This document shows, in pieces, positions 16,381-42,925 of a stretch of DNA of 64,000 bases (position 1 is its first letter; every line of letters starts with the position of its first letter). Location: NCBI GenBank assembly GCA_964494945.1, contig CAZBTX010000002.1:38696-102695 (forward strand). Reading direction: 5' to 3'. The stretch is from an uncultured Candidatus Saccharibacteria bacterium. Its GTDB lineage: Bacteria; Patescibacteriota; Minisyncoccia; Sungbacterales; JACQCQ01. Under the pieces are notes generated by a model. That model saw only the letters and a program-made list of their open reading frames with translations. It made no database searches and was not told where the DNA came from. The translations under genes were made by a program, and so were the position numbers.

Positions 16381-18999
16381 TTAAACCACAAAGTTAATCA
16401 ACCGATCACGAACGAAAACGACTTTTTGCGGCTCACTCGTCAAGAACTTGGCGGCTGCGGCATCTGCACGCACCGCGCTTTCGGCGTCTTTTTGTGAGAC
16501 ACCTCTTGGCAAATTTATCCTGCCACGCACCTTGCCATTTACCTGCACTATCAACTGAAACGTATCTTCATGAATAAGTTTTTCGTCATACGAAGGCCAA
16601 GAGGATTTATGAATTGAGCCCTTGTCTCTTTGCTGTCCCGATTCGCTTCGCGAATCGCGGATCCTCGATTTTTTGTCTGCGAAAAATCGGGACCATAACT
16701 CTTCCGCGATATGCGGCGCGAAAGGCGCTAATAATTGCAAAAATATTTTGACGTCTTCGCCCGAAACAGCCCCCGGAAACTCCTCAAACTCGTTCAAAAG
16801 TATCATGAGTGCCGAAATCGCTGTATTGTAGCGCAGCCCTACAATGTCTTCAGTTATTTTCTTAATTGTTCGATGAACTATTCTTTCCAACTTTTGATTT
16901 TTGAGTTGTAATTTTGATTTTTGACTTTTGATTTTTGATTTTTCAGAGTAGAACCTCCAAACCCGATTTAAGAATCTGGTCATCCCGGCAATCCCCGAAT
17001 CGCGAAAATCCCCGCCTTCCTGAAATGGTCCGGTAAACATCAAATAAAGTCGCAAGGCGTCAGCGCCGTAGGCCTTGATGTAATCGTCCGGATTTACAAT
17101 ATTCCCCTTGGATTTGGACATTTTGGCGCCGTCTTTGATTATGAGTCCGTGTGCACGAAATATCGTGAACGGCTCCTCAAAATCCAAAAGCTCCCAATCC
17201 TTGAATACCATCGTAAGAAACCGCGAGTACAAAAGATGCAGAACCGAGTGCTCCGCCCCGCCGATGTACATCTGGACAGGCAACCATCGCCGTGTAATTT
17301 CCTGATTCCACGGAATTTCTAATTCCGAATTTCTAATTCCTAAATTTGAACTTTTTGCATTCTCATTTTGAATTTTGATCTTTGAATTTTGCATTTTTAC
17401 GCTGGGATACCGAAGAAAGTACCAGGCCGAATCCAGAAAAGTATCGGAAACATCGGTTTCGCGACGCGCCTTAGCGCCGCACTTGGGACATTTTGTTTCG
17501 TAAAACGACTTAACTGACGCCAATGGCGACTGACCCGTCCCCGTGGGCCGAAAATTCTTGATAAACGGCAATTTTACCGGCAAATCTTTTTCCGGCACCG
17601 CCATCCAGCCCGGATTTTCCAGTTCGCCCTTATTAAATCCTTCCTTAATTTTGATTTTTGATTTTTGATTTTTGATTTTCCCCGCGCAGTTTTCACAGAA
17701 AACAAGCGGGATGGGCGGCCCCCAATAGCGCTGGCGCGAAATCAGCCAATCACGGATGCGATATGTGGTAACTTTTCTACCCTTTCCCTTTTCGCTAAGC
17801 CACTTCGTGATGGCAACCCTGGCCCCAGATGAAGTCATGCCACTGAACTGACCTGAGTCGTACAAAACTCCATCTTCTATAAAAACCCCTTCAATTTTTT
17901 CTTCATCGGCCGGTTTTATAGTTGGCTTCAGCGGTATATGGTATCTTTTCGCAAAAGCCACGTCGCGTTCATCGTGTGCGTCTCCAAATAGAGCACCGGT
18001 GCCAAAATTTATAAGCGCGTAGTCCGCAATCCAAATCGGTAACTCTTGGTTATTTAAGGGATTAACTGCTTTCGCTCCCCTTACTTCGATTCCTGTTTTT
18101 TCTCTTCCTTCAGCAGCCCGTTCAAGTTCAGACTTTTTAATTGCATTTTGAACGTAGTTTTCTATTTCTTTGCTATTTGATACTTGATTTTTTAATTCCC
18201 AGATTATCGGATGCTCCGGAGCCAACACTAAAAATGTAGCCCCCCAAAGCGTGTCTACTCTGGTGGTAAACACCTTGATACTTAAATTTTTGTTTTTAAT
18301 CTCAAAACTGATCTCCGTGCCCTCGGATTTTCCGATCCAATTCCTTTGAGCGATTTTTATTTTTTCCGACCAGTCAATTTTTTCAAGATTATTCAAGAGC
18401 CGCTCGGCATAATCCGTGGTCTTAAAAAACCATTGCTCCAGGTCTTTTTTTATGACCGCCGTGCCGCATCTTTCGCAATTCCCGTTTATGACCTGCTCAT
18501 CCGCCAGCACCGTTTTGCACGAAGGGCACCAATTAACTTTTGCCTTTTTGCGGTATGCCAAGCCGTGCTTAAACATCTGGACGAAAATCCACTGGGTCCA
18601 CTTGTAGTATTCTGGATCGTAGGTTTCTAGTCGCTCATTCCAGCTAAATCCGTTGCCGATGCTCGAAAGCTGCCGGTAAAAATTCTTTTCCGAAACCTTG
18701 GCCTGTTTGGCGGGGTGCTTGCCGATCTTCAGGGCGTAATTTTCCGAATGAATCCCGAAGCCGTCAAGTCCAATGGGCTCAAAAACGTCATGTCCTTGCA
18801 TGCGCTTAAAGCGCCCGTAAATGTCGGAGCCGGTAAAAGCGAAGACATTGCCCACATGAAGCCCCTCCGCCGAAGGATACGGGAACATCATTAAGTTGTA
18901 GTAGGGTCTCTTGGCTCCCTTAAAATTCGGCTCGTAGGTTTTATCCCTAAGCCATTTAGCTTGCCATTTCTTCTCAATTTTCGCCGGGTTGTAGCGCAT
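16381..18999 (-). CDS. leuS: leucyl-tRNA synthetase with three K/Q/S-rich low-complexity insertions
   Basis: HVGN (HIGH) and KMSKSKGN motifs plus a CP1 editing region. Insertions KIKNQKSKIKIKEG, KMQNSKIKIQNENAKSS and EKSKIKSQKSKLQLKNQK are encoded by (tgatttt)n repeats. Confidence 0.85.
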   Translation of the reverse strand: MRYNPAKIEKKWQAKWLRDKTYEPNFKGAKRPYYNLMMFPYPSAEGLHVGNVFAFTGSDIYGRFKRMQGHDVFEPIGLDGFGIHSENYALKIGKHPAKQAKVSEKNFYRQLSSIGNGFSWNERLETYDPEYYKWTQWIFVQMFKHGLAYRKKAKVNWCPSCKTVLADEQVINGNCERCGTAVIKKDLEQWFFKTTDYAERLLNNLEKIDWSEKIKIAQRNWIGKSEGTEISFEIKNKNLSIKVFTTRVDTLWGATFLVLAPEHPIIWELKNQVSNSKEIENYVQNAIKKSELERAAEGREKTGIEVRGAKAVNPLNNQELPIWIADYALINFGTGALFGDAHDERDVAFAKRYHIPLKPTIKPADEEKIEGVFIEDGVLYDSGQFSGMTSSGARVAITKWLSEKGKGRKVTTYRIRDWLISRQRYWGPPIPLVFCENCAGKIKNQKSKIKIKEGFNKGELENPGWMAVPEKDLPVKLPFIKNFRPTGTGQSPLASVKSFYETKCPKCGAKARRETDVSDTFLDSAWYFLRYPSVKMQNSKIKIQNENAKSSNLGIRNSELEIPWNQEITRRWLPVQMYIGGAEHSVLHLLYSRFLTMVFKDWELLDFEEPFTIFRAHGLIIKDGAKMSKSKGNIVNPDDYIKAYGADALRLYLMFTGPFQEGGDFRDSGIAGMTRFLNRVWRFYSEKSKIKSQKSKLQLKNQKLERIVHRTIKKITEDIVGLRYNTAISALMILLNEFEEFPGAVSGEDVKIFLQLLAPFAPHIAEELWSRFFADKKSRIRDSRSESGQQRDKGSIHKSSWPSYDEKLIHEDTFQLIVQVNGKVRGRINLPRGVSQKDAESAVRADAAAAKFLTSEPQKVVFVRDRLINFVV

Positions 19000-20177: not shown

Positions 20178-21629
20178 TCATTTGCGCGGGAAAAGGGGGT
20201 CAATTTTTACACTAGGAATAAAAAGATAAAAACCCTCTGGAGCTTTTTTAATCCCTAGTCCACTTAAAATTTTTCTCGAAGAATCAGGCATAAGCGGCTG
20301 TAGCAGTTCAGCTATCTTACTAAGCACAGCCAGGGGTTCTATCAACATGGTCTTTCTCCTATCTTTTAAAAATTTCCATGGTTCCGTTTTATTGATTAAC
20401 TGATCAGCATAGGAAACAAGTTGTTGAATAATATTTATAGCACCATAAAACTCCAGCGACTCCATTAAGTTTTGATATTCCTGAGCCAATGAATCAATAT
20501 ATTTCTGTGATTCACCGCTTAACCCAAGAAGATTAATTTCCTGCTCGGCTGCTAGCGTAGTAATACGAGCTGCCAAATTCCCGATACCATTCGCCAAATC
20601 GGCATTGTATTTTTCGGTAAGTTTATCCCAGTCAAAATCGCCGTCCGCGCCGAAGGGAAATGCCGAGAGCAGAAGATACCTGGCGCCATCCACACCAAAT
20701 TTTTGGGTTATCTCATCCGGCGTAATGACATTACCGAGTGTTTTGGACATTTTCTGGCCGCCAATCGTGAAAAAACCGTGAGCAAAAACTTTTTTAGGCG
20801 GCTCTTCACCGGCCGCTAAAAGCAGGGCTGGCCAAACAACGGAGTGGAACCAAAGAATGTCTTTGCCGACTAAATGCAAATCCGCTGGCCAGCATTTTTC
20901 TTGGCTACCGTAGGTATAATAGTTAATCAGCGCGTCTACCCAAACGTAAACAGTCTGGGTTTCATCCCGGGGAATTGGTATCCCCCATTTGGTTTTCTTC
21001 ATGGAACGCGAAATGGAAATATCTTCCAATCCTTGGCGTAATTTACCCAAGATCTCGTTTTTGCGTTCATCTGGCGCTATAACCAGCTCGTCTGATTCAA
21101 TCAGTTTAATTAATTGATCCTGAAACTTGCTTAAATGGAAAAAGTAATTTTCTTCTTTGTGCCGCTCGGGGATAGTTTGATGGTCCGGGCATTTGTTATC
21201 AACTAGATCTGATTCGTTAAGAAATGCTTCATGCCCCACGCAGTAAAGTCCTTCGTAAATACCCTTGCTGACAAAACCGCGGTCATAAATTTTTTGCATG
21301 AACTGTTTGACGGTCGCCCCGTGATCGGAATCTGTTGTCCGAATAAAACGATCATATTGAACGCAGAGTTTGTCCCAAGTTTCGCGGAATACTGACGAAA
21401 TCTCATCAGCATAGGATTTGACGTCTTTGCCGCGAGCGGTTGCGGCTTTTTCAATTTTATCACCATGCTCATCCGTCCCTGTGAGCAAACGAACATCCTG
21501 CCCCATGGATTTCCGCCATCTGGCATAGACATCGGCCGCCACCGTGGTATAAGCATGCCCAATATGCGGCACGTCGTTGACGTAATAAATGGGGGTAGTG
21601 ATGAAATAAGGTTTTTTATTCATGCCCAA
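20178..21629 (-). CDS. metG: methionyl-tRNA synthetase (short form)
   Basis: HIGH motif (PHIGHAYT) and KMSKTLGN. Confidence 0.8.
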   Translation of the reverse strand: MGMNKKPYFITTPIYYVNDVPHIGHAYTTVAADVYARWRKSMGQDVRLLTGTDEHGDKIEKAATARGKDVKSYADEISSVFRETWDKLCVQYDRFIRTTDSDHGATVKQFMQKIYDRGFVSKGIYEGLYCVGHEAFLNESDLVDNKCPDHQTIPERHKEENYFFHLSKFQDQLIKLIESDELVIAPDERKNEILGKLRQGLEDISISRSMKKTKWGIPIPRDETQTVYVWVDALINYYTYGSQEKCWPADLHLVGKDILWFHSVVWPALLLAAGEEPPKKVFAHGFFTIGGQKMSKTLGNVITPDEITQKFGVDGARYLLLSAFPFGADGDFDWDKLTEKYNADLANGIGNLAARITTLAAEQEINLLGLSGESQKYIDSLAQEYQNLMESLEFYGAINIIQQLVSYADQLINKTEPWKFLKDRRKTMLIEPLAVLSKIAELLQPLMPDSSRKILSGLGIKKAPEGFYLFIPSVKIDPLFPRK

Positions 21630-24507: not shown

Positions 24508-25881
24508 TTACTTGATTTTCGCGTTTAAGTATTCAACCAATTCCGAATCCTTAACTCGTTCCTGCTGCATAGTGTCGCGGTCGCGAACAGTAACGGAGCC
24601 GTCTTCTAACGTTTCAAAATCCACCGTGATACAGAATGGCGTGCCAATTTCGTCCTGGCTATAGTAGCGTTTGCCGATATTCCCCCGGTCATCCCAGGCG
24701 GTCATAAAATGCTGTTTTAGATTTCGATAGATAGCGCGTGCCCGCTCCACCAGCTCGGGCTTATTCGCAAGTAGCGGGAACACGGCGACTTTATAGGGAG
24801 CAATGGAGGGTGCAAGTCGCAGGACGGTGCGGTTCTCCTCCTCGTGATAAGCATCACAAAGAAGCGCAAATAGAATCCGCTCAACTCCTGCGGATGGTTC
24901 GATTACATATGGTATAAACCGCTCTTTAGTCTCCTCGTCGAAATAAGAAAGATTATCCCCCTCCCTAGTATGAGCCTGTAGATCAAAATTGCCGCGATTC
25001 GCAATTCCTTCAATTTCCTTCCGACCGAAAGGAAAATCATACTCAATATCTATTGTTGCTTTTGAATAATGTGCTCGTTCTTCCGTTGATTGTTCTCGTA
25101 AATGTATGTTGTTCAGACCAATGCGTTTGTACCATGCAAGACGCTCATCAACCCACATCCTGAAAGCTTTGTCATCATGTCCCGGCTTCACGAAATATTC
25201 CAACTCCATCTGCTCAAATTCGCGTGTACGAAAAATGAAATCCTTTGGATTGATTTCATTTCGGAATGCCCGGCCAATCTGCGCGATACCGAAAGGAACT
25301 TTAACTCGCATAGTATCAAGGATATTTTTGAAATTCACAAAAATGCCGCCAGCAGTTTCGGGGCGAAGATACGCGACCGAGGCATCGCCTTCCACGGGGC
25401 CGACAAAAGTTTTGAACATCAGGTTGAATTTACGCGGAAATCCTAGCGTATTCTTTCCGCCGCAACTCTCACAAACAACATCTTTAAAATCCGTGATTAA
25501 TTCATACGATTTATCCGAAAGGCCCGGAATCCTATTTACCTGTATTTTAATTTTATCCTCGCCGAAATCATCTGCTTTAAACCTTCTATGGCAGTTAGAA
25601 CATTCCACCAAAATATCAGAGAAGCCGATAACGTGTCCCGACGCCTCCCACACTTTTGGGTTCATGATAATAGCGGCGCTCAAACCGACAACGTCATCAC
25701 GCTCCGATACAACCGCCTTCCACCAAGCTTGTTTGATATTAAATTTCAATTCTGCGCCAAGCGGGCCGAAATCATAAAAGCCAGCGAGCCCGCCGTAAAT
25801 TTCCGACCCGGGAAAAACAAAACCGCGCCTTTTGGCGAGTGACACGATTTTATCCATAAGCGTCAGATTGTCCGCAGTCAT
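24508..25881 (-). CDS. glyQS: glycyl-tRNA synthetase (alpha2 dimeric type)
   Basis: N-terminal KRRGFVFPGSEIYGG is class II GlyRS-like. Confidence 0.8.
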   Translation of the reverse strand: MTADNLTLMDKIVSLAKRRGFVFPGSEIYGGLAGFYDFGPLGAELKFNIKQAWWKAVVSERDDVVGLSAAIIMNPKVWEASGHVIGFSDILVECSNCHRRFKADDFGEDKIKIQVNRIPGLSDKSYELITDFKDVVCESCGGKNTLGFPRKFNLMFKTFVGPVEGDASVAYLRPETAGGIFVNFKNILDTMRVKVPFGIAQIGRAFRNEINPKDFIFRTREFEQMELEYFVKPGHDDKAFRMWVDERLAWYKRIGLNNIHLREQSTEERAHYSKATIDIEYDFPFGRKEIEGIANRGNFDLQAHTREGDNLSYFDEETKERFIPYVIEPSAGVERILFALLCDAYHEEENRTVLRLAPSIAPYKVAVFPLLANKPELVERARAIYRNLKQHFMTAWDDRGNIGKRYYSQDEIGTPFCITVDFETLEDGSVTVRDRDTMQQERVKDSELVEYLNAKIK

Positions 25882-27922: not shown

Positions 27923-28573
27923 TTATATCGCATTGGCGGTTTGATTAAGAAAAAGGAACCTAAATCCCAAATATCTTTCAAATGACTGCGATACAAGACG
28001 CAAAATGCGTTTAAGGTCTTCACTGGATAGCGACTCACCCAAGGCCTTTTGGATAGTAAATTCTTCGTAGCGTTTTACGTATTCTCTCAAGTTATCGTCA
28101 CTGACCAAATCTGTATCGCGCGATAGCGCATATCCTAAAACCGAGAGTAAATTTAAGAGAAACCAAATAAGCGCCCTGTCGTGCTCGGCATCGGGTATGT
28201 AATTCTCTGTATCAAGCAATTTAAAAAAATCCGAAAGTACCCGCCAGATCGCTTTATCTTCACCTTCAAAAGCGATGGTTGAGAGTATAGTAGCAGCGGA
28301 GGCGGCTAATCTCTGTTTTTCCAAAGACGACACTATACCCAAGTGGGAATCAATTAACGACGCGCCAATCAGGCGATAGCCGCCCCTTCCTTCAACCAGT
28401 GTTATCTCGGTCTCGCTGAATATCTCCAGATGGCCCTTAAGTTTGGCGGATATCTTGCGAACTCCTTGAGCTACCGCGCGAATTAGGCCGAAACGCTCCG
28501 TATAGAGCGAGAAACTCAAATCTGCTTCCCCTTTTTCGGTATGTCCCAAAACAAATGTCCGGGTGCGGTACAT
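27923..28573 (-). CDS. recO: DNA repair protein RecO
   Basis: N-terminal OB-fold region (RTRTFVLGHTEKGEADL) and overall length fit RecO. Confidence 0.6.
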   Translation of the reverse strand: MYRTRTFVLGHTEKGEADLSFSLYTERFGLIRAVAQGVRKISAKLKGHLEIFSETEITLVEGRGGYRLIGASLIDSHLGIVSSLEKQRLAASAATILSTIAFEGEDKAIWRVLSDFFKLLDTENYIPDAEHDRALIWFLLNLLSVLGYALSRDTDLVSDDNLREYVKRYEEFTIQKALGESLSSEDLKRILRLVSQSFERYLGFRFLFLNQTANAI

Positions 28574-28686: not shown

Positions 28687-31600
28687 CTAGCGGATACCTA
28701 ACCAAAGCTTCTCGCCGCCCAAAGGCAGTTCGCGTTCCACGCGGAATTTGCGCTTGCCGCCAACAATAATTTTTACAGTATTGGTCTCCGTTTTTATCTG
28801 TTTTTGCCATTCGTTGATGACCGCGATGCCCTTCTCCGACCCGGCGCACTGAACAATTATTTTTTCCTTGGGCTTTAATCCTAAGTCACGGCGCAATTCC
28901 TGGATATTGCGAATTATCTCTCTGGCTATGCCTTCTCTTCTTAAAACTTCGGTAACGGCGGTATCCAACACCACCCCCACTTTTGACAATTTTTTATCAA
29001 TTACGATCTTTTTCACGTTAACTTCTTCCTGAATAAGGTCCAGTAATTCCGGGTATCGGCTTAATTCCAGCGTTTTGATCCTTAATTCTCCGAGCGGTTG
29101 GCGAACTTTGACACCGGCTGCGGCGCGCGCTTTCAAGGCATCGGCCGCAATACCGCGAACCGTACCCATTTTTTTCTCAAGTTCTAATTTTTGAAGTGCC
29201 CCATTGGGCTTAGGCCACAAAACCAAGTGCACGCTTTCTTCCGAGAGCTGGATTTTCTCTTTTAACCCTTGGTGAACGGCTTCGGCCGCGTACGGCACAA
29301 AAGGCGCCAAGACCAGAACCAGAGTTTTAAGCACTTCAGCCGCAACACCGGCCACTTCTTCCTTTTCCCGCTTATTTTTAGGTCTTTGGAAGCGGCGGCG
29401 CGACCTTCGCAAATACCAATTGGAAAAATCGTCAACGGTAAATGATTCTATAAGGCGCGCCGCTGAAACAATATCGTACTCGTCCAAATGCTCGGTGACG
29501 GCGCTAACAAGCTTAGCGAGGCGCGAAAGTATCCAGCGGTCCAGAAGCGAGGTGGAGGTTTGCCGCGGCTTTACGCGGCCTTCGGTATAGGTGTCAAAAA
29601 GCACGAAGGAATTCCAAAACGTCCCCAAAAATCCGCGGAGTTTGCCCAGTATGTCCTTCTCGTCAAATTTTTTAGGGTCGCCGGGAGCGTTCACGGTGTA
29701 AAAATACCAGCGAATGGCGTCCGCTCCGTATTTTTCTATCATCTCCCAGGGATTTACCGCGTTGCCTTTGGACTTGGACATTTTCTGACCGTTCTTGTCC
29801 AAGACATGCCCCAGAGAAATCACGTTCTTGTAAGGAACGCCCTTGCCGAGCAGAGTTGACTCCGCCAGCAACGTGTAAAACCAGCCTCGGGTCTGGTCCA
29901 CCGCTTCGCAAATATAATCGGCCGGGAAGAATTTTTTCTTATCAACCAAATCCTTGTTCTCAAAAGGATAGTGGCTCTGGGCGAAAGGCATGGCGCCGGA
30001 GTCAAACCAAACGTCCGCCACTTCAGGCACCCTCGTTTTGATACCACCGCACGAACATCTGACCTTCAGCTCATCAACGTAAGGGCGGTGCAGGTCCACT
30101 TCACCCTTGGCGTTTAACGGCAGGGGTTTTGGTTCATATATCTCATACTCCGCCGGCGCCAAATATTCGCCGTGCGGCTGTTTCCACTGCGCCATCATTT
30201 CCCCCTCGGTCAGTCCTTTCATCATGGCAAGCATCATCCAAGCGGGATCGGCGTGCGTAACTATCAAGATGGTTTGGCCGCGATATTTTTTCTCCGTCTC
30301 GCGAAAAAAATCTTCCAAGCGGACTCTTACATCCAGAAGCGACTCCCCGCCCTCGGGGGACTTAGAGAGTTTATCGCGCGGCGTTCTGAATAATTTGCGG
30401 TAAGCGGCGGCCGATTCTCCGTTCATAACACCCGCCCTGATCTCGCGGAGGCGCGGGTCAAAATTGATACTTAACCCGCCTAAAACTTCCGACACGATCT
30501 CGGCCGTTTCTTTGGTGCGAGTAAGGTCGGATGCGAAAATATGACTTATATTCTCGCCTTTAAGATAATACGCGGCCTCGCGGGTAGCGTGCTTGCCCCT
30601 CTCTGTTAAACTAAACGGCGTGGCTTCGGGCCAGGAAACCACGATTTGTTTCATGATATTTTCCGATTCGCCGTGCCGCATCAAAATATACCGGTTCCCC
30701 GAGCTCATGGCCCGCTCCGAAAGCTCACTCACAGAGGAAACGACGAGTATATCGCCGCAGGCGTTGCACTTCCAAATAGGGAGCGTTGTGCCCCAATATC
30801 GTTCCCGGGAAAAAGCCCAGTCCTTTTCTTCTTTCAGCCATTCGCCGAATCGGCCGCGTTTTAAATGCGCGGGCACCCAATTTATCGTCTCGTTATTTTT
30901 TAAAAGCTCCTTGCGAACGGCGTTAACCCTCACCCACCAGGACGACCGAGCGTAATACAAAATCGGCGTTTCGCATCTCCAGCAAAAAGGATATTCGTGC
31001 TCGTAGGCCTCTTCACGGAACAATGAGCCGGCGCGCTGCAAATGCTGCAGTATCAAAAGCTCCGTTTCCTTGGCTTTGACGTATTTGCCGGCGAGTCCGT
31101 CGCCGAGAGCGCCGATGAATTTACCGGCATCGGTCACGGTATGCACGGTCGGGAGCCCGTAGCGCTTGCCTAATTTATAATCATCGTCGCCGTACATAAC
31201 GGCCGTATGCACAATACCCGATCCCTCATCGGACTTAACAAAGTCGGCCTCGTAAATTTTGTAAGAATTCGCGGAAACCAGCTCCGGCACGTCAAAAAGC
31301 GGCTGATATGAAAGTCCAATGAGTTCCCGGCCGGAGAACGGCACGCTGGCCTTAGAGTCCTTAGGCAGTACCCCGCGTTTCAAAAGCAATGGGAAATTTT
31401 CCTGGCCCACGACGACCCAGTTGCCCTTTTTTTCCGGGTCCGGAACTCTTACGTACTGCATGGACGGAGAGACCGCAAGCGCCAAATTCCCCGGCAAGGT
31501 CCAGGGAGTTGTGGTCCAGGAAAGCAGGGCTACATTTTTCCATCTGGGGTCCTGGCTGGTTAATTTAAACCGGATGTAAACCGAAGCGTCCACGATGGAT

Positions 31601-32340
31601 TTGTACCCCAGCGCCACCTCGTGCGACGAAAGCCCGGTGCCGCATCTGGTGCACCACGGCAAAACCTTGAAATCCTGGTACAGGAGATCTTTCTTCCAGA
31701 ATTCGGAAATTATCCACCACAGCGTTTCCATGTAAGAACGCTCATAAGTGATGTAAGGATTTTTTTCGTCCAGCCAAAAAGCGATGCGTTCCGTCAGTTT
31801 TTGAAATTCCTGGACGTACTGCCATACCGATTCGCGGCATTTTTCGTTAAATTGCCGAATGCCGAATTTTTCAATGTCTTGTTTGGTTTTGAATCCCAGC
31901 GCTTTTTCCACTTGAATTTCTACGGGCAGTCCATGCGTGTCCCAGCCGGCTCTTCTTGGCACATAATACCCCCGCATGGATTTGTACCGCGGGATGATGT
32001 CTTTAAAAACTCTGGCCTCCACGTGATGGAATCCGGGTGCGGCGTTGGCCGTTGGCGGACCTTCGTAAAACACGAAGGTCTTGCCACGTTTCCTGGATTC
32101 CAATGATTTTTCAAAAATGCGTTTTTCTTTCCAAAATTTTAAGGTCTTTTCTTCTCTTGCGACAACTTCCGATTTAGGGGCCTCGGGAGCGGGCGGAGAC
32201 GAAAAAACTGCGCCGGACACGGTGTTAAGTGCGTTCCTAAAATGCTTTTTAGCTGATTTGCCTTTCTCCGTCGGCATAGCGGTCGCTCGATAGCTTTTTG
32301 GAAAACGCATGAAATCCCAGCGAGATTTCGTACTCACCAC
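28687..32340 (-). CDS. ileS: isoleucyl-tRNA synthetase (type 2) with inserted histidine-phosphatase (PGAM-like) domain
   Basis: PPTANAAPGFHH (HIGH), GWDTHGLPVE, CWRCETP zinc site and KMSKSKGN are present. About 190 aa containing RHGESEN...VTHADP sit between the CNACG and the DLHRPY core segments. The true start may be M22 at 32277. Confidence 0.8.
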   Translation of the reverse strand: MVSTKSRWDFMRFPKSYRATAMPTEKGKSAKKHFRNALNTVSGAVFSSPPAPEAPKSEVVAREEKTLKFWKEKRIFEKSLESRKRGKTFVFYEGPPTANAAPGFHHVEARVFKDIIPRYKSMRGYYVPRRAGWDTHGLPVEIQVEKALGFKTKQDIEKFGIRQFNEKCRESVWQYVQEFQKLTERIAFWLDEKNPYITYERSYMETLWWIISEFWKKDLLYQDFKVLPWCTRCGTGLSSHEVALGYKSIVDASVYIRFKLTSQDPRWKNVALLSWTTTPWTLPGNLALAVSPSMQYVRVPDPEKKGNWVVVGQENFPLLLKRGVLPKDSKASVPFSGRELIGLSYQPLFDVPELVSANSYKIYEADFVKSDEGSGIVHTAVMYGDDDYKLGKRYGLPTVHTVTDAGKFIGALGDGLAGKYVKAKETELLILQHLQRAGSLFREEAYEHEYPFCWRCETPILYYARSSWWVRVNAVRKELLKNNETINWVPAHLKRGRFGEWLKEEKDWAFSRERYWGTTLPIWKCNACGDILVVSSVSELSERAMSSGNRYILMRHGESENIMKQIVVSWPEATPFSLTERGKHATREAAYYLKGENISHIFASDLTRTKETAEIVSEVLGGLSINFDPRLREIRAGVMNGESAAAYRKLFRTPRDKLSKSPEGGESLLDVRVRLEDFFRETEKKYRGQTILIVTHADPAWMMLAMMKGLTEGEMMAQWKQPHGEYLAPAEYEIYEPKPLPLNAKGEVDLHRPYVDELKVRCSCGGIKTRVPEVADVWFDSGAMPFAQSHYPFENKDLVDKKKFFPADYICEAVDQTRGWFYTLLAESTLLGKGVPYKNVISLGHVLDKNGQKMSKSKGNAVNPWEMIEKYGADAIRWYFYTVNAPGDPKKFDEKDILGKLRGFLGTFWNSFVLFDTYTEGRVKPRQTSTSLLDRWILSRLAKLVSAVTEHLDEYDIVSAARLIESFTVDDFSNWYLRRSRRRFQRPKNKREKEEVAGVAAEVLKTLVLVLAPFVPYAAEAVHQGLKEKIQLSEESVHLVLWPKPNGALQKLELEKKMGTVRGIAADALKARAAAGVKVRQPLGELRIKTLELSRYPELLDLIQEEVNVKKIVIDKKLSKVGVVLDTAVTEVLRREGIAREIIRNIQELRRDLGLKPKEKIIVQCAGSEKGIAVINEWQKQIKTETNTVKIIVGGKRKFRVERELPLGGEKLWLGIR

Positions 32341-32575
32341 TCTCCTCGCCGTCCCTCGATAAACTCGGAGACCATGCCGACTCGTCGAGTGAGTGTTTCC
32401 ACAAAAGCTATCTTCGCTAGAGTGTTTTCTTAAGGTAGGCCTAAAAGGCCTTTTATTGAGTACCTTATCCTAACGGAAAAAAGATGAAAATGGAAGAGTC
32501 CCCTCGCTTCCCCTTGTTAAATAGCCGTCAACGTGGCACATTAAGGCAAATCCAGCTTCTGGAAGGAGGGAAAGA

Positions 32576-32908
32576 ATGGGCTTTCGAATGGAGATGAAAC
32601 GCGATGCAGTGAGAGGCGACGAGGTGCGCTTGAGCGAGTTCTCCGGGCCGGCTCATGTGATTCTGGAGGGAGCCGTCGTGGGTGGCGAAAGGGCCACGAT
32701 CGAGGTCAAGGCCGAGGGAGGAGGATTCCTTCTCACGCTAGCGAGGAAGCTCGAGGACGGCCGTGAGCAGAAACCTTTCATGGTCGGGGTTACAACTACG
32801 GGCCAGCTGGTGGTTGTGCATCCCGGCACCGGGTTCGTTGCGGACAGGTGCTGCCCGGACGTCTGGAGGACCAACCAGCCGACCTTTGCGGATGCGAAGA
32901 CGGCCTAG
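32576..32908 (+). CDS. hypothetical protein (GC-rich island)
   Basis: AGGAGG Shine-Dalgarno 7 nt upstream. Its own terminator follows. Confidence 0.45.
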   Translation: MGFRMEMKRDAVRGDEVRLSEFSGPAHVILEGAVVGGERATIEVKAEGGGFLLTLARKLEDGREQKPFMVGVTTTGQLVVVHPGTGFVADRCCPDVWRTNQPTFADAKTA

Positions 32909-32920
32909 GCCCGCTGTGGC

Positions 32921-32953
32921 GGGGGCGTCAGAGACGCCCCCGCCGTTTTTCTT
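32921..32953 (+). terminator. rho-independent terminator
   Basis: Stem gggggcgtc/gacgccccc with a T-run (gccgttttt). Confidence 0.6.
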
Positions 32954-33131
32954 CTTTAAAGCCCAACGGGCTACCTTGAGCAAATCTTAAGCGAAGATAG
33001 CTTTTCTGGAAACGCTGAGCGACGAGGCGGCATGGTTCACCGAGTTTTATGAGGTGACGCCGAGGAGCGACGCGAGTTTCAAATTCTCGCTGGGAATTTG
33101 AGACGTTTTCCAAAAAGCCATCGAGCGTCCG

Positions 33132-34748
33132 CTACATCTCCTCCGGCGCTGACATCCCCAAAAGCCAAAGTGCACGCTTTAAGACGATTTGAGTCGCAAC
33201 AGCTAAACTAGTACGAGCTTCTTTTATATTATCTTCCGCGTCTAAAATCCGGTTCTTTTCGTAAAAAACGTGAAAAGCGTTGGCCAATTCGTAAACATAA
33301 TGCACCAAACGAGATATACGATAATCGCCAGCAATATCTTCCAATATTTCTGGAAAACGAACTAACTTAGATATCAGCGTTTTCTCGGAATCCGAAGAAA
33401 GCAGTGAAAAATCAAATTTATCCGGCATTACTGCTCCCTTCCTGAAAATGCTGGCAATACGCGCGTGAGCGTATTGCACGTAATAAACCGGGTTTTCTTT
33501 AGAATGTTTTTTCGCAAGCGCTATATCAAAATCAATGTGCGTTTCCGGATTTTTTTCAAGAAAGAAATAGCGAACCGCGTCCAGCCCAACTTCGTCAATC
33601 AATTCATCAATGGTCACGTACACTCCTTTTCGTTTTGACATCCTGCGTTCCACTCCGCCTTCCATCAAACGCACGAGCTGCATGATGACAACCTCGGATT
33701 TTAAGAGCCCAACAATCTGGGCAACGGCCTGAATGCGGCCGATATAGCCGTGGTGATCGGCTCCCAGAATTAAAATCTTTCGGTCAAAACCGCGCTCCTT
33801 GGTTTCCAAATAGTGACCGCCGTCAGCTAAAAGATAAGTGAGGAACCCGTCAGAGGTAACCAGAACACGGTCTTTATCATCGCCAAAATCAGTTGTTTTC
33901 AACCACTGCGCATTCTCGTTTTCATACACCAGCCCATTTGATTTCGCGAGCTCCAGAAACCGCCCAACGTATCCGGCTTTGTGCAAATTAGTATCTTCCG
34001 AGGTCCAGCGATCAAATTTAATTTTCATTTTTTCTTCAACAGCCGGCTGGATCATAGTGCGCAAAAAGTCAGCGGCCACTTTTTTACCAAGCGCTTCCGG
34101 GTCGTCTTTCAGGGTTACACACTCGTCTTTATGTTCCCCAGCCCATTCTGAAATATGCTCGCCCCTGTAATATTCTTCGCTATCGGGGACTAGACCGGTC
34201 GAAGCTAAAATTGCTAATCCCAGCGTTCGCACTTGATTTCCGGCATCGTTAATATAGTATTCGCGTTCAACTTCATATCCTCGCGTTTCTAAAACTTTAG
34301 AAAGCACATCGCCAAAGAATCCGCCGCGGCCGTTAGCGAGTGTTAAGGGGCCGGTGGGGTTGGCAGAGATGAATTCTACCTGGATTTTTTCCGAGCTGGT
34401 TCTTTGATTCCCGTAATTCTCCCCACTCCCCAAAATTTCATGGAAAGCTGATTCTTTGGCCTTGCTGGTCAAGGTAATATTCAAAAATCCCGGGGCGGCT
34501 ACTTCAACTTTTTCAATCAAATCGTCTAGCAATTTTCCTTTCAGCGCCGCGGCCAACTTCATGGGATTTTCTTTCCTATCTTTGGCCAAAACTAAAGGCA
34601 AATTCGTGGCGTAGTCCCCGTATTCGGGCCTGGGCGGTTCGGACAGCGAAAACTGAATATCGTCGCCGATGCCCGCAATTTTCTTTAATATATTCCTAAG
34701 TTTTTCCCGCATTGGCTTCAGTTTACCCCCACACCAAAAATTCCCCAA
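33132..34748 (-). CDS. argS: arginyl-tRNA synthetase
   Basis: Class I core with EYYINDAGNQV and a C-terminal DALR anticodon-binding domain. Confidence 0.8.
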   Translation of the reverse strand: MGNFWCGGKLKPMREKLRNILKKIAGIGDDIQFSLSEPPRPEYGDYATNLPLVLAKDRKENPMKLAAALKGKLLDDLIEKVEVAAPGFLNITLTSKAKESAFHEILGSGENYGNQRTSSEKIQVEFISANPTGPLTLANGRGGFFGDVLSKVLETRGYEVEREYYINDAGNQVRTLGLAILASTGLVPDSEEYYRGEHISEWAGEHKDECVTLKDDPEALGKKVAADFLRTMIQPAVEEKMKIKFDRWTSEDTNLHKAGYVGRFLELAKSNGLVYENENAQWLKTTDFGDDKDRVLVTSDGFLTYLLADGGHYLETKERGFDRKILILGADHHGYIGRIQAVAQIVGLLKSEVVIMQLVRLMEGGVERRMSKRKGVYVTIDELIDEVGLDAVRYFFLEKNPETHIDFDIALAKKHSKENPVYYVQYAHARIASIFRKGAVMPDKFDFSLLSSDSEKTLISKLVRFPEILEDIAGDYRISRLVHYVYELANAFHVFYEKNRILDAEDNIKEARTSLAVATQIVLKRALWLLGMSAPEEM

Positions 34749-41200: not shown

Positions 41201-42925
41201 TTACTTCAGCATCTGTAGCATCTTTTCTATGGGTAGCGTATTTATTATGTCTTTTGCCTCGCACCAGCCGCGACGAGCTTGGGCAATACCGAACTCCAAA
41301 AAGGCGAAGTGCGAGATAGCGTGCGCGTCTGAATCAATGGAAAACTTTATCCCAGCTTCGCGAGCTATGCGAATATGCTCGTCTTTCAAATCCAGCCGAT
41401 GGGGCTCGCCGTCAATTTCCAAAATGGTCTTGGTGCGCTTGACGGCCCTTAATATCTCGTCAAAATCCAGTTCTATCGGTTCACGCTTCTGTATCAGGCG
41501 GTCGGACAAATGGAAAATAATGTCCACGTTAGGATTTTCCATGGCGCGGATCACGCGCTTGGTCTGGTCGGCCCTAGATAATTTTAAATTTGTATGCACC
41601 GCCGCGCCAACGCAATCCAGCATCGCCAGAGTTTTATCGTTTATGTCCAATTTCCCGTCGGCGAGAATATTAACTTCCGCGCCTTTTAGAACTCTAAATT
41701 TAATCCCGCGCTTTTTTAACTCCAAATTAACTTTATCAATTTCAGCCATTTGGCGCACCAGCTTTTTCTCATCCGCGCCGCCTGTCATGGCGAGCGTCCG
41801 AGTATGGTCAGTAATCACAATATATTCCAATCCATATTTATATGCGGCCAGCGCCATCTCCATAATGGAATTATTTCCATCGGTCCAGTCGGTTTGCGTC
41901 TGCAAATCGCCCTTTAAATCCTTATACCCGATAATTCTCGGCAAATTATTTTTGGCGGCCAGTTCAATTTCGCCTTTATTTTCGCGCATTTCCGACTCTA
42001 CGTATTGAAGCCCGAGTGTTTTATAAACTTCTTCTTCGGTTCTACCAGCGATACGCTTTGCCCCCTTGAAAAGGCCGTATTCGTTCAGCTTGTATCCTTT
42101 TTTAATGGCGCGTTCTCTCAATGCCACATTATGTTCTTTAGAGCCGGTAAAATAATTTAGCGCGGCACCGAACGATTCTTCGGGAATCACGCGGATATCC
42201 ACATCCAAGCCGTTTTTCATCCTGACCATGGACTTGGTTTCGCCATGAGCGTAAACGTGCGCGACGTCCTTCATGCGCACGAAATTATTCATAACAGGCC
42301 GCGGTTTTTTAGAAACCGCGATAATATCAATATCCCCCACCGTTTCTTTCCAGCGCCGGAACGAACCGGCAATGACAAGTTCATCTACCCCTTTCCAGCT
42401 TTTTAGTTCTGATTCCAATTCTTTAACATATGGGCGAATATCGCCCAAAACAAATCTCCCGCCGTGCGATTTTACAAATTCAATGCCTTTTAAAATTTTA
42501 TCTTCCGATTTTTTGCCAAATCTCGGAAGTGTAGCGATTTTTCCGGCCTTGGCGGCTTTCTCCAGATCGGCAACGGTTTTAATTCCCAATTTCTGCCATA
42601 AGACCTTAATTCCTTTCGGCCCCACGCCTTCAATTTTGGTAAGCCCCGCGATATCCACCGGCAGTTTCTTTTTTAATTGCTCATATTCCTTGATGTGGCC
42701 GGTACTCACATATTCCTCAATTTTTTCCGCGAGCCCTTGCCCCACGCCGGGAATATTTTTCAAAGCCGGAATGCCGCCTTCTTTATAAACGCTCTTTACG
42801 TCCTCGGAGAATGACCCGACCGATTCGGAAGCGCGCTCATACGCTTGCGGCTTAAACGGCACGTCGTCCACGGCCATTAATTCCGCCATCTCCAGAAAAA
42901 TTTTGGCGAGTTCCTTATTTATCAT
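41201..42925 (-). CDS. polX: DNA polymerase X family protein with C-terminal PHP domain
   Basis: HhH motifs, a pol-beta-like NT domain (GSFRRWKETVGDIDI), and a PHP phosphoesterase region (ITDHT). The start is at MINKELAKIF. Confidence 0.7.
   Translation of the reverse strand: MINKELAKIFLEMAELMAVDDVPFKPQAYERASESVGSFSEDVKSVYKEGGIPALKNIPGVGQGLAEKIEEYVSTGHIKEYEQLKKKLPVDIAGLTKIEGVGPKGIKVLWQKLGIKTVADLEKAAKAGKIATLPRFGKKSEDKILKGIEFVKSHGGRFVLGDIRPYVKELESELKSWKGVDELVIAGSFRRWKETVGDIDIIAVSKKPRPVMNNFVRMKDVAHVYAHGETKSMVRMKNGLDVDIRVIPEESFGAALNYFTGSKEHNVALRERAIKKGYKLNEYGLFKGAKRIAGRTEEEVYKTLGLQYVESEMRENKGEIELAAKNNLPRIIGYKDLKGDLQTQTDWTDGNNSIMEMALAAYKYGLEYIVITDHTRTLAMTGGADEKKLVRQMAEIDKVNLELKKRGIKFRVLKGAEVNILADGKLDINDKTLAMLDCVGAAVHTNLKLSRADQTKRVIRAMENPNVDIIFHLSDRLIQKREPIELDFDEILRAVKRTKTILEIDGEPHRLDLKDEHIRIAREAGIKFSIDSDAHAISHFAFLEFGIAQARRGWCEAKDIINTLPIEKMLQMLK

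What the first reader, a model, noticed from the sequence alone, without database searches (positions are those of the whole stretch)
30100..30730. Histidine-phosphatase (PGAM-like) domain inserted inside isoleucyl-tRNA synthetase
IleS here has 1217 aa. About 190 aa sit between the conserved WKCNACG segment and the DLHRPY...DVWFDSG segment of the catalytic core. The insert carries the histidine-phosphatase hallmarks RHGESEN (catalytic His), SDLTRTKETA and VTHADP. The flanking IleRS sequence is contiguous in one frame with no stops, so this is a genuine in-frame domain insertion and not an assembly join. A phosphatase module in an aaRS could act on a nucleotide (Ap4A, ppGpp, a 2',3'-cyclic or 3'-phosphate tRNA end) or could be a regulatory pseudo-enzyme. 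I do not know of this architecture being described.
Basis: partly seen in the sequence, partly recalled or inferred. Interest (0 to 1): 0.8.

Follow-up and report, generated by a model that had tools for sequence, protein, structure and literature searches.

The report
Phosphatase domain nested inside isoleucyl-tRNA synthetase
The essential enzyme that charges tRNA with isoleucine here carries a complete, apparently active phosphatase inside it; in related tiny bacteria the same phosphatase is a separate gene wedged between the arginine and isoleucine tRNA-charging genes, so the two clearly work together, for a purpose nobody has described.

Summary
The ileS ORF (28687-32340, minus strand) encodes a type-2 IleRS. 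About 202 residues (aa 546-747, nt 30100-30705) replace a 6-residue loop inside a CxxC…CxC zinc knuckle. The insert is a branch-1 histidine phosphatase (Pfam E=6.5e-33) that folds confidently and resembles PhoE and PspA.

It is not unique to this genome. All 120 best IleRS homologues and 46 Patescibacteria genome loci carry it. The catalytic R-H-R-E/D-H residues are kept in 149 of 151 copies.

New here: in 80 metagenome loci the same phosphatase is either a free ~190-aa gene in an argS→phosphatase→ileS operon (55 loci, IleRS ~960 aa) or is nested in IleRS (24 loci, ~1170 aa). It is never both. One locus has it fused to ArgRS. The IleRS tree needs at least 3 switches between the two states. Rarer forms are other IleRS sites, tandem copies, ValRS and a TsaC fusion.

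It is therefore a dedicated partner of class-Ia synthetases. The substrate is unknown; I favour a nucleotide or tRNA-end phosphate. A hitch-hiking metabolic phosphatase or mutase is not excluded. No paper describing it was found.

The parts
28687..32340 (-). ileS ORF: a type-2 (eukaryote-like) IleRS carrying the nested phosphatase. It is 1217 aa from GTG 32340. The true start is more likely ATG 32310 or ATG 32277.
   Evidence: ORF. NCBIfam TIGR00392 ileS scores 836.5 bits against a cutoff of 621.4. Pfam finds tRNA-synt_1, Anticodon_1 and DUF5915. The closest solved structure is 1ILE, E=1e-238. Start-codon candidates are, and the inverted-repeat arm overlapping codons 1-10 is.
30100..30705 (-). 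The inserted segment, aa 546-747: a histidine phosphatase domain with short linkers.
   Evidence: The two-part alignment to 1ILE shows query aa 546-747 replacing Tth residues 482-487. The span between the zinc ligands is 227-256 aa in 116 homologues.
30196..30687 (-). Pfam His_Phos_1 match, aa 552-715.
   Evidence: E=6.5e-33, 114.5 bits. AlphaFold model of the domain alone: pLDDT 92.6. Foldseek to PspA, PhoE and GpgP gives TM 0.75-0.78.
30673..30678 (-). R555-H556 of the RHG motif. H556 is the predicted phospho-accepting nucleophile.
   Evidence: Present in 119 of 119 full-length homologues. All complete domains in the exhaustive search have R-H at these positions.
30517..30519 (-). R608, the second phosphate-binding arginine (motif SDLTRTKETA).
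   Evidence: Present in 118 of 119 homologues. Invariant in alignment A2.
30442..30444 (-). E633, the predicted general acid (motif RLREI).
   Evidence: E in 129 and D in 20 of 151 complete domains.
30253..30255 (-). H696, the second catalytic histidine (motif VTHADP).
   Evidence: Present in 118 of 119 homologues and 150 of 151 domains.
30757..30768 (-). C525-x-x-C528, the first half of the zinc knuckle that hosts the insert.
   Evidence: Both Cys are present in 119 of 119 homologues. They align to T. thermophilus C461/C464.
30049..30057 (-). C762-x-C764, the second half of the zinc knuckle.
   Evidence: Invariant columns C741/C743 of alignment A1 in trimmed numbering. They align to T. thermophilus C502/C504.
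32023..32034 (-). GFHH (aa 103-106), the class-I signature motif in its non-canonical G/AXHH form.
   Evidence: Position. It aligns to HVGH of 1ILE. The family consensus is PGIHH. The motif's significance is described in PMC10485003.
29770..29784 (-). KMSKS loop (aa 853-857). It is intact, so the synthetase core looks functional.
   Evidence: Invariant K-M-S-K-S columns in A1.
33132..34748 (-). argS (ArgRS, 538 aa), the upstream operon partner. It has no phosphatase domain here.
   Evidence: Pfam finds Arg_tRNA_synt_N, tRNA-synt_1d and DALR_1. argS directly precedes the phosphatase gene or ileS in 72 of 79 metagenome loci with a free or nested domain (53 of 55 free, 19 of 24 nested), and in the one remaining locus argS itself carries the phosphatase and precedes ileS.
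27923..28573 (-). recO, directly downstream of ileS. The same gene follows the ArgRS-phosphatase fusion in L049.
   Evidence: Pfam RecO_N. Synteny with L049/L050.

Best explanation
**What it is (shown).** The segment is a complete histidine phosphatase of the short PhoE/PspA type. It has every catalytic residue and sits in the zinc-knuckle loop of the cell's type-2 IleRS. It is the same gene that sister Paceibacteria lineages keep as a free ~190-aa ORF between argS and ileS, or fuse to the end of ArgRS.

**Chemistry (inferred from the family).** His556 attacks a phosphomonoester. Arg555, Arg608 and His696 hold the phosphate. Glu633 protonates the leaving group. Water then releases phosphate from the phospho-histidine.

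**Role (inferred).** It is a phosphatase that works alongside class-Ia synthetases. Its substrate is something these enzymes produce or must handle. I favour a nucleotide-linked phosphate: either an adenine-nucleotide product or by-product of aminoacylation, or a phosphorylated 3' end of tRNA that has to be cleared before charging. Nesting or fusing the domain simply places it where that substrate appears. The variety of attachment points suggests that proximity matters and exact geometry does not.
For: **Identity and intact active site.**
- Pfam E=6.5e-33.
- The catalytic residues are kept in 118-119 of 119 IleRS homologues and in 149 of 151 domains overall, including every tandem copy.
- The fold is modelled confidently, with PspA, PhoE and GpgP as nearest structures.

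**Functional coupling to synthetases.**
- In 80 metagenome loci, 55 have a free gene: 49 show the full argS>phosphatase>ileS arrangement, and 5 of the other 6 are cut by a contig end.
- 24 have the domain nested in IleRS.
- 1 has an ArgRS fusion followed by ileS.
- No locus has both a free and a nested copy. IleRS ORFs have a median of 962 aa where the gene is free and 1174 aa where it is nested.
- Nine further free-gene loci looked up one by one, for six different free proteins including a more distant group, show the same neighbourhood.

**Repeated, independent joining.**
- The IleRS tree needs 6 state changes, with a minimum of 3 across 100 bootstrap replicates.
- At matched IleRS divergence, nested and free domains are as similar to each other as nested domains are among themselves.
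- Other attachments exist: two further sites in IleRS, tandem copies, ValRS, the ArgRS C-terminus and TsaC/Sua5. All these hosts are ATP-using, AMP- and PPi-releasing enzymes of tRNA charging or tRNA modification.

**One anecdote.** A single locus places HIT and NUDIX nucleotide hydrolases between the phosphatase gene and ileS.
Against: - No substrate was tested, and nothing in the sequence points to one. The domain is below the curated cutoff of every specific subfamily, and its pocket looks like that of broad-specificity small-molecule phosphatases.
- Operon membership can be a historical accident, and a fusion to an adjacent gene such as ArgRS needs only the loss of a stop codon.
- The extra genes found inside the operon are heterogeneous; HIT/NUDIX was seen once.
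- The tools did not return model coordinates, so I could not measure how far the phosphatase active site lies from the aminoacylation site or from the tRNA path.
- The ValRS and TsaC cases are rare. One ValRS example sits on a 3.9-kb contig at 2x coverage.
- The loci were fetched with patterns from one free-gene subclade, so the counts are not an unbiased census.
Confidence: 0.45

Rival explanations
1. Hitch-hiking metabolic enzyme. The domain is an ordinary small-molecule phosphatase, or the divergent 'missing' phosphoglycerate mutase of Parcubacteria. It has nothing to do with translation, happens to live in an essential, well-expressed operon, and has been fused to its neighbours by chance.
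For: - The nearest relatives are broad-specificity or metabolic phosphatases: PhoE, PspA, CobC, GpgP and TIGAR.
- The small monomeric S. pombe PGM aligns over its full length.
- Database annotators call the free form 'PhoE' or 'putative phosphoglycerate mutase'.
- Jaffe et al. 2020 report PGM as absent in several shallow Parcubacteria clades, 'possibly too divergent' to detect (PMC7304191).
- A fusion to an adjacent ArgRS gene is mechanically trivial.
Against: - The dPGM models are far below their cutoffs: 72 against 225 bits and 29.7 against 81.7 bits.
- Typical dPGMs align only to the N-terminal half of the clade profile.
- Adjacency does not explain nesting about 500 codons inside ileS, repeated at least 3 times.
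- It does not explain the use of three different IleRS sites, including in a genome where argS is not a neighbour.
- It does not explain the ValRS and TsaC fusions.
- It does not explain the strict either-free-or-nested pattern.
Confidence: 0.25
2. Protein phosphatase or regulator. Like the family members SixA, PGAM5 and Sts-1, the domain removes phosphate from a protein. The target would be the synthetase itself (for example after attack by a HipA-type toxin kinase on the KMSKS region) or a partner. This would keep charging active or tune it.
For: - The family includes phosphoprotein phosphatases (established knowledge). A weak SixA similarity is seen (TIGR00249, E=4e-5).
- Tethering at several surface sites of the target protein, and tandem copies, would suit an enzyme that acts on its own host.
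Against: - The SixA score is far below cutoff: 23 against 74.5 bits.
- The domain has a PhoE-like cap segment that SixA lacks, since it is collinear with PhoE.
- No kinase gene recurs in the operon.
- No phosphorylation of IleRS or ArgRS is known in these organisms.
Confidence: 0.1
3. Immunity module. The domain destroys a phosphorylated natural inhibitor of class-I synthetases, such as an aminoacyl-adenylate mimic. It would be comparable to the GNAT and HIT enzymes that detoxify peptide-nucleotide antibiotics, protecting an epibiont that lives among antibiotic producers.
For: - The host IleRS already carries the G/AXHH motif linked to mupirocin hyper-resistance.
- IleRS proteins with a GNAT domain exist (NCBIfam NF040702), and one protein has both the phosphatase and a GNAT domain (P0224).
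- HIT and NUDIX genes sit in one operon variant.
Against: - This is purely circumstantial.
- No such inhibitor of ArgRS or IleRS with a hydrolysable phosphomonoester is known to me.
- Very broad and ancient conservation across Paceibacteria is unusual for an antibiotic-immunity function.
Confidence: 0.07
4. Inactive structural or regulatory module (pseudo-enzyme) that only stabilises the zinc-knuckle region or binds tRNA phosphates.
For: - Some lineages have a shortened insert without the cap segment and GGES motif, and have also lost the zinc-ligand cysteines (L038, L044-L046). This shows the region tolerates remodelling.
Against: - The catalytic pentad is kept in 149 of 151 copies, even though overall identity within the domain is only about 38%.
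- Even the shortened versions keep RHG, Arg, Glu and His.
- The free-standing orthologues cannot be structural parts of IleRS.
Confidence: 0.03
5. Assembly chimera or frame artefact joining a phosphatase gene to ileS.
For: None found.
Against: - There is a single frame without stops and even base composition across the junctions.
- The same junctions occur in 120 database homologues and 46 genome loci from independent assemblies.
- The full-length model is confident.
Confidence: 0.01

Closest known systems
PhoE (Geobacillus stearothermophilus YhfR, PDB 1H2E/1EBB) and PspA/iPSP1 (Hydrogenobacter thermophilus, PDB 4IJ5): short branch-1 histidine phosphatases
   Same: Same fold and size (about 190-210 aa), and collinear over the whole length. 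Same catalytic Arg-His…Arg…Glu…His set. They are the best profile matches (125 and 113 bits) and the best Foldseek matches (TM 0.75-0.78).
   Different: They are free-standing metabolic enzymes with no link to synthetases. Identity is only 24-27%. The NCBIfam PspA model scores 62.8 against a cutoff of 350. The substrate here is unknown.
Type-2 IleRS (T. thermophilus 1ILE; Priestia megaterium IleRS2 8C8U-W)
   Same: Host enzyme: collinear catalytic core, editing domain, anticodon-binding domains and type-2 C-terminus. The zinc-knuckle cysteines are conserved.
   Different: Here about 202 residues replace a 6-residue loop between the two halves of the zinc knuckle. The signature motif is the natural GxHH variant, not HxGH.
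IleRS containing an N-acetyltransferase (GNAT) domain (NCBIfam NF040702 'ileS_w_GNAT')
   Same: It is a precedent for an IleRS that carries an extra catalytic domain. One relative (P0224) has both a GNAT and the phosphatase.
   Different: A different enzyme family at a different position. The window protein scores 297.6 against a cutoff of 1999, so it is not a member.
Bifunctional RNase H / acid phosphatase (M. tuberculosis Rv2228c type; NCBIfam NF005567 PRK07238)
   Same: A CobC/PhoE-like histidine phosphatase fused to an enzyme that acts on nucleic acid. It is one of the best NCBIfam matches for the insert (72.5 bits).
   Different: It is an end-to-end fusion to RNase H, not a nested insertion in a synthetase. 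The score is far below the cutoff of 326. The reason for that fusion is, to my knowledge, also unexplained.
CP1 editing domain of class-Ia synthetases
   Same: It is a hydrolytic domain nested in a loop of the Rossmann-fold catalytic core of IleRS, ValRS and LeuRS. That makes it an analogue in architecture, and possibly in the logic of a second or third active site on one synthetase (established knowledge; Pfam layout).
   Different: It has an unrelated fold and chemistry (ester hydrolysis of mischarged tRNA), is universal in these enzymes, and has a known function.

Membership tests
Histidine phosphatase superfamily, branch 1 (Pfam PF00300) | Profile match above the curated gathering score | tested here: met
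   114.5 bits against 21.7, E=6.5e-33, aa 552-715.
Histidine phosphatase superfamily, branch 1 (Pfam PF00300) | Catalytic core: RHG histidine nucleophile, two arginines, a second histidine and an acidic proton donor | tested here: met
   R555, H556, R608, E633 and H696 are present. They are conserved in 118-119 of 119 homologues and in 149 of 151 domains.
Histidine phosphatase superfamily, branch 1 (Pfam PF00300) | Alpha/beta fold of the phosphoglycerate-mutase-like type | tested here: met
   AlphaFold model with pLDDT 92.6. Foldseek probability 1.00 to PspA, PhoE, GpgP, TIGAR and dPGMs, with TM up to 0.78.
Histidine phosphatase superfamily, branch 1 (Pfam PF00300) | Phosphoryl transfer through a phospho-histidine intermediate | not testable with these tools
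   This needs an enzyme assay of wild type against H556A.
Cofactor-dependent phosphoglycerate mutase (dPGM) | Score above the curated cutoffs of the dPGM models | tested here: not met
   NF038349 dPGM_arch 72 against 225; TIGR01258 29.7 against 81.7; GpmB NF002901 57 against 261.
Cofactor-dependent phosphoglycerate mutase (dPGM) | Full-length collinearity with dPGMs, including the C-terminal half | tested here: not met
   Yeast, human and bacterial dPGMs align only to profile positions 6-110 of 189. Only the small S. pombe enzyme aligns over its full length.
Alpha-ribazole phosphatase CobC (TIGR03162) | Score above the equivalog cutoff | tested here: not met
   73.1 against 162.9.
Phosphoserine phosphatase PspA (NF045917) | Score above the equivalog cutoff | tested here: not met
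   62.8 against 350.
Phosphohistidine phosphatase SixA (TIGR00249) | Score above the equivalog cutoff | tested here: not met
   23.4 against 74.5.
Isoleucyl-tRNA synthetase (TIGR00392), type 2 | Equivalog score, class-I signature and KMSKS motifs, editing domain, type-2 C-terminal domain | tested here: met
   836.5 against 621.4. GFHH and KMSKS are present. The editing region aligns to 1ILE and to the isolated editing-domain structures. DUF5915 is found at the C-terminus.
Isoleucyl-tRNA synthetase (TIGR00392), type 2 | It is the organism's only, housekeeping, IleRS | not testable with these tools
   Only 64 kb of the genome is available, and no second ileS is in the window. The HMM scan and the ORF list show one class-Ia IleRS, one LeuRS and one MetRS.
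IleRS with GNAT domain (NF040702); MupA/MupB (NF000257/8) | Score above the exception-model cutoff | tested here: not met
   297.6 against 1999; 755.6 and 750.7 against 1900.

The most novel reading that the evidence does not exclude
The phosphatase is a third catalytic site of the synthetase that repairs or licenses tRNA. It would remove a 2'/3'-phosphate, a cyclic phosphate, or a toxin-installed (toxSAS-type) pyrophosphate from the terminal adenosine, so that IleRS, ArgRS and ValRS can charge the tRNA. If so, a conserved tRNA-end surveillance step is built into, or encoded next to, class-I synthetases across a large part of the Candidate Phyla Radiation. The repeated moves of the gene into and out of ileS would then be selection for channelling damaged tRNA directly into charging.
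Probability: 0.15. Interest if true: 0.9.

Novelty: new variant of a known kind. Interest (0 to 1): 0.7.

Why it matters
Aminoacyl-tRNA synthetases are among the best-studied enzymes, and new catalytic modules in them are rare. Those that are known (editing domains, appended signalling domains) have taught a great deal.

Here an apparently active phosphatase is tied to IleRS and ArgRS across a very large, uncultivated bacterial radiation, in three ways:
- a conserved operon;
- mutually exclusive free and nested states;
- several independent fusions.

That is about as strong a genomic argument for a shared function as sequence data can give, yet no known step of aminoacylation needs a phosphatase. 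Finding the substrate would either reveal an unrecognised step in tRNA or nucleotide handling in these minimal cells, or identify a missing metabolic enzyme of Parcubacteria.

It is also directly testable. The free form and its insert-less IleRS give a natural split version of the nested enzyme. For annotation, it explains why NCBI labels these proteins only 'class I tRNA ligase family protein'.

Tried and rejected
- **Artefact or chimera:** rejected.
- **Unique to this genome:** rejected. It is lineage-wide.
- **Assignment to a specific phosphatase subfamily** (CobC, dPGM, GpmB, PspA, SixA): every curated cutoff is missed.
- **A single ancient insertion:**
  - The neighbour-joining tree of the 200-aa domain was too poorly resolved to decide.
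  - The IleRS tree with bootstraps argues for at least 3 switches.
  - Ancient paralogy of the free and nested copies is not supported.
- **'Split IleRS' in L054:** it is one in-frame TGA at a conserved Trp, not a split at the insertion site.
- **A recurrent fourth operon member or a HIT/NUDIX theme:** not supported. The genes in the operon gaps are heterogeneous.
- **Pyrophosphatase idea:** the literature searched says nothing useful about pyrophosphatase in CPR, and whole genomes could not be scanned with these tools.
- **More ValRS-type hosts:** the last large protein search, run with the ValRS-embedded domain, returned only free ~190-aa proteins.
- **Genome scan with a diverse alignment:** the first attempt failed because there was no conserved stretch. 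It was repeated with closer sequences.
- **Structured RNA in the argS-ileS gap:** no credible Rfam match.
- **Geometry of the phosphatase site relative to the tRNA path:** not possible, because model coordinates are not returned.
Full report
**1. The observation**

The window has one uninterrupted ORF at 28687..32340 on the minus strand, 1217 aa counted from a GTG.
- WKCNACG at aa 523
- RHGESEN at aa 555
- SDLTRTKETA at aa 604
- VTHADP at aa 694
- DLHRPY at aa 749
- DVWFDSG at aa 776
- KMSKS at aa 853

Pfam finds the following:
- tRNA-synt_1 in two pieces
- His_Phos_1 at aa 552-715 (E=6.5e-33, 114.5 bits against a cutoff of 21.7)
- Anticodon_1
- the type-2 C-terminal DUF5915

NCBIfam calls the protein IleRS (TIGR00392, 836.5 against 621.4).

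Against T. thermophilus IleRS (1ILE) the alignment falls into two collinear blocks. About 202 residues (aa 546-747, nt 30100-30705) replace Tth residues 482-487. They lie between the zinc ligands C461/C464 and C502/C504, which correspond to C525/C528 and C762/C764 here.

Base composition is flat across the junctions.

Two small corrections apply. The net insertion is about 200 aa. The first 10 codons of the GTG-start ORF lie inside an inverted repeat, so ATG 32310 or ATG 32277 is the more likely start.

**2. The insert is a real, folded and probably active enzyme**

A full-length AlphaFold model (1196 aa, 116-sequence alignment) has pLDDT 91.2 and pTM 0.85. The insert region scores pLDDT 93-98. 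The domain modelled alone reaches pLDDT 92.6 and pTM 0.89.

Foldseek places it with the short histidine phosphatases: PspA, PhoE, GpgP (Rv2419c), TIGAR and the small S. pombe PGM, with TM 0.75-0.78.

A profile of the clade matches PspA (125 bits), PhoE (113) and CobC (95) over their full length. Typical dPGMs align only over the N-terminal half. No curated subfamily cutoff is reached.

In 119 full-length homologues the catalytic residues are almost invariant:

| Residue | Present in |
|---|---|
| R555 | 119/119 |
| H556 | 119/119 |
| R608 | 118/119 |
| H696 | 118/119 |

The domain as a whole is only about 38% identical among homologues, against 60-70% for the catalytic core of IleRS. So the active site is conserved against a background of rapid divergence.

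**3. It is lineage-wide, not a curiosity of this genome**

All 120 best database homologues (48-70% identity) have the same Pfam architecture. The named ones are Sungbacteria, Jorgensenbacteria, Parcubacteria, Paceibacterota and Minisyncoccia.

A scan of species-representative genomes found 46 loci. All are from Patescibacteria, except one 3-kb contig binned as Nitrosotenuis. All have the domain at the same IleRS site.

NCBI mostly names these proteins 'class I tRNA ligase family protein'.

**4. The same phosphatase exists as a free gene beside ileS**

An exhaustive HMMER search with the insert alone gave 901 representatives at E<=1e-10. The best 150 are a mix of IleRS proteins and free proteins of about 190 aa that are just as similar, at 35-45% identity. 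Every free gene I looked up lies next to ileS, usually with argS upstream.

A metagenome scan then gave 80 loci, which I classified locally:

| State of the phosphatase | Loci | Detail |
|---|---|---|
| Free gene | 55 | 49 show complete argS>phosphatase>ileS on one strand, tightly packed. 4 show argS>phosphatase cut by the contig end. 2 show phosphatase>ileS without argS, one of them cut by a contig end. |
| Nested in IleRS | 24 | 19 have argS directly upstream; 4 of the remaining 5 are cut by a contig end. |
| Fused to ArgRS | 1 | Followed by ileS. |

No locus has both a free and a nested copy. Complete IleRS ORFs have a median of 962 aa where the gene is free and 1174 aa where it is nested.

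A more distant group of free genes also sits between argS and ileS, sometimes with extra genes in between. The free form is found in Staskawiczbacteria and other Parcubacteria.

The window itself reads argS (33132-34748) > ileS with the nested domain > recO. It shares wider gene order with a locus that has the ArgRS fusion and no ileS at that position.

**5. The gene has moved in and out more than once, and into other hosts**

I built an IleRS tree from 93 sequences with the insert removed (890 columns, Kimura distances, neighbour joining, 100 bootstraps). It needs 6 changes between the free and nested states, and never fewer than 3 in any replicate.

Four insert-bearing clades are interleaved with free-gene clades. 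The free-gene clades have 99-100% support and the deeper nodes 96-100%. The insert-bearing clades have 57%, 91%, 100% and 100%.

At matched IleRS divergence, nested-versus-free domain pairs are as similar (0.39-0.49) as nested-versus-nested pairs (0.35-0.51). The domain therefore seems to co-diverge with its genome, and ancient paralogy is not supported. The tree of the domain alone is too weak to decide.

These are distance trees on a biased sample, so the number of events is provisional.

Other arrangements also occur:
- two tandem copies at the usual site (P0138, P0206)
- copies at two other IleRS sites, after DVWFDSGAMPFAQ and after the KMSKS region (P0178, a complete gene on a 28.6-kb contig; P0232)
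- ValRS with one copy (P0269), or with four copies (P0121, on a low-coverage contig)
- an ArgRS C-terminal fusion, complete on 70-kb contigs from two assemblies (P0125)
- a TsaC/Sua5-phosphatase fusion (P0189)

These are documented. Every complete copy keeps the catalytic residues.

**6. What it most likely does**

*Shown:* it is an intact PhoE-like phosphatase, and it is genomically locked to class-Ia synthetases.

*Inferred:* it acts on something these enzymes make or must handle. All the hosts bind ATP and release AMP and PPi while charging or modifying tRNA. The variety of attachment points and the tandem copies suggest that proximity matters and precise geometry does not.

I therefore favour a nucleotide-linked phosphomonoester as the substrate: either an adenine-nucleotide product or by-product, or a phosphorylated tRNA 3' end. 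My confidence in that level of detail is about 0.45. My confidence in 'active phosphatase that is a functional partner of IleRS/ArgRS' is much higher.

The main rival is a metabolic phosphatase, or a divergent phosphoglycerate mutase, that merely lives in this operon. Points for that rival:
- its closest relatives are metabolic enzymes
- Jaffe et al. 2020 note that PGM seems to be missing in some Parcubacteria

Points against it:
- the dPGM models and the C-terminal half do not fit
- adjacency does not explain repeated nesting deep inside ileS, the other insertion sites, ValRS or TsaC

The remaining options are less likely. They are a protein phosphatase, immunity against phosphorylated synthetase inhibitors, and a pseudo-enzyme. 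The last is contradicted by the conserved active site.

I could not measure the position of the phosphatase pocket relative to the tRNA path, because the tools do not return model coordinates.

**7. Comparison with what is known, and novelty**

The domain is a member of the histidine phosphatase superfamily, branch 1: profile, catalytic residues and fold were all tested and met. It is not a member of any curated subfamily tested.

The host is a type-2 IleRS with the natural G/AXHH signature.

Known parallels are:
- IleRS with a GNAT domain (NCBIfam NF040702)
- the RNase H/acid-phosphatase fusion of mycobacteria
- in architecture, the nested CP1 editing domain

Six literature searches found no description. 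A 2026 preprint that annotated the domain architectures of 96,219 IleRS sequences does not mention a phosphatase, CPR or Patescibacteria.

The library covers open-access papers only, so an earlier mention elsewhere cannot be excluded. The architecture is also silently present in public databases.

I rate it a new variant of a known kind (a synthetase with an accessory catalytic domain). It comes with unusually strong genomic evidence for a function that is not yet understood.

Noticed in passing
window 32312-33098 (arms 32312-32418 and 32990-33098; ORF 32576-32908, + strand): The 790-nt gap between argS and ileS holds an element flanked by ~107-nt imperfect inverted repeats. These consist of three collinear blocks of 27, 17 and 17 nt, 88-94% complementary. 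The element carries a 110-aa ORF on the opposite strand with GC 0.60-0.64 (neighbours are 0.45-0.53), a strong Shine-Dalgarno sequence and a hairpin plus T-run terminator. It has no Pfam or Rfam match, and the repeat occurs only here in the window. It occupies exactly the slot where the free phosphatase gene sits in other genomes. Its left arm overlaps the first 10 codons of the GTG-start ileS ORF.
   Followed up: partly
window 32023-32034 (aa 103-106 of IleRS): The class-I signature motif is GFHH, and the family consensus is PGIHH. This is the natural non-canonical G/AXHH form that Brkic et al. 2023 (PMC10485003) showed gives IleRS2 hyper-resistance to mupirocin.
   Followed up: partly
window 16381-43021, minus strand: There is a dense run of translation and repair genes on one strand: LeuRS (16381-18999), TatD, MetRS (20178-21629), AI-2E transporter, M16 peptidase, a class-II synthetase (24508-25881), a DUF11 protein, recO, ileS, argS and further on PolX (41201-43021). 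The order matches locus L049/L050, where ArgRS carries the phosphatase and ileS is absent from this position. LeuRS and MetRS have no phosphatase.
   Followed up: partly
P0178 (L138:4001-8260), P0232, P0138, P0206, P0240: These are IleRS variants with the phosphatase at two other sites, or with two tandem copies at the usual site. The other sites are after DVWFDSGAMPFAQ (about query aa 790-805) and after the KMSKS region (about aa 918-929). The P0178 contig has DAHP synthase and an SLH-domain protein as neighbours and no argS. That does not look like a typical CPR genome.
   Followed up: partly
P0269; P0121 (L136/L137:366-3851): ValRS proteins carry the same kind of domain. P0269 has one copy at the equivalent site. 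P0121 has four copies, one at a further upstream site and three in tandem. P0121 is on a 3.9-kb contig at about 2x coverage and ends inside the fourth copy, so it needs confirmation. A search with the ValRS-embedded domain found no more examples.
   Followed up: partly
P0125 (L049/L050:5001-7070), L067:3381-5567, P0189 (L051:977-2140): There are two apparently independent ArgRS-phosphatase C-terminal fusions. Their domains are only 40% identical to each other, and each is closer to free or nested copies. There is also a TsaC/Sua5 (t6A synthesis)-phosphatase fusion, flanked by a HAD hydrolase and a PD-(D/E)XK nuclease.
   Followed up: partly
P0224 (1066 aa): This IleRS has three extra domains: an IS200-like Y1 transposase domain in frame inside the editing-domain region (aa 340-461), the phosphatase at the usual site (680-854), and a GNAT acetyltransferase at the second site (935-1063). 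It may be a real mosaic or a gene-calling artefact.
   Followed up: no
L054:4368-4376 (minus strand): An insert-less IleRS next to a free phosphatase gene has an in-frame TGA exactly at the conserved Trp of the YPHC-W-RC motif. This could be UGA read as Trp or a sequencing error. The contig also contains N bases.
   Followed up: partly
L139:5595-7540; L141:5582-8151: In a more distant free-gene group, extra genes sit between the phosphatase gene and ileS. One genome has an unknown 221-aa protein, a HIT-family hydrolase and a NUDIX hydrolase. Another has an alternative oxidase, a hemerythrin and an unknown protein. A small 40-57-aa ORF lies between argS and the phosphatase gene in both.
   Followed up: partly
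L038:1793-5056, L044, L045:4540-7815, L046: Some lineages have a shortened insert of about 165 aa. It keeps RHG, Arg, Glu and His but lacks the ~28-residue cap segment with the GGES motif. These IleRS have also lost all four zinc-knuckle cysteines.
   Followed up: partly
L062:4357-4998, L073:3392-4081, L118:4366-5001: Three loci share a homologous unknown ORF of ~215-230 aa (40-43% identity, no Pfam match) between argS and the free phosphatase gene.
   Followed up: no
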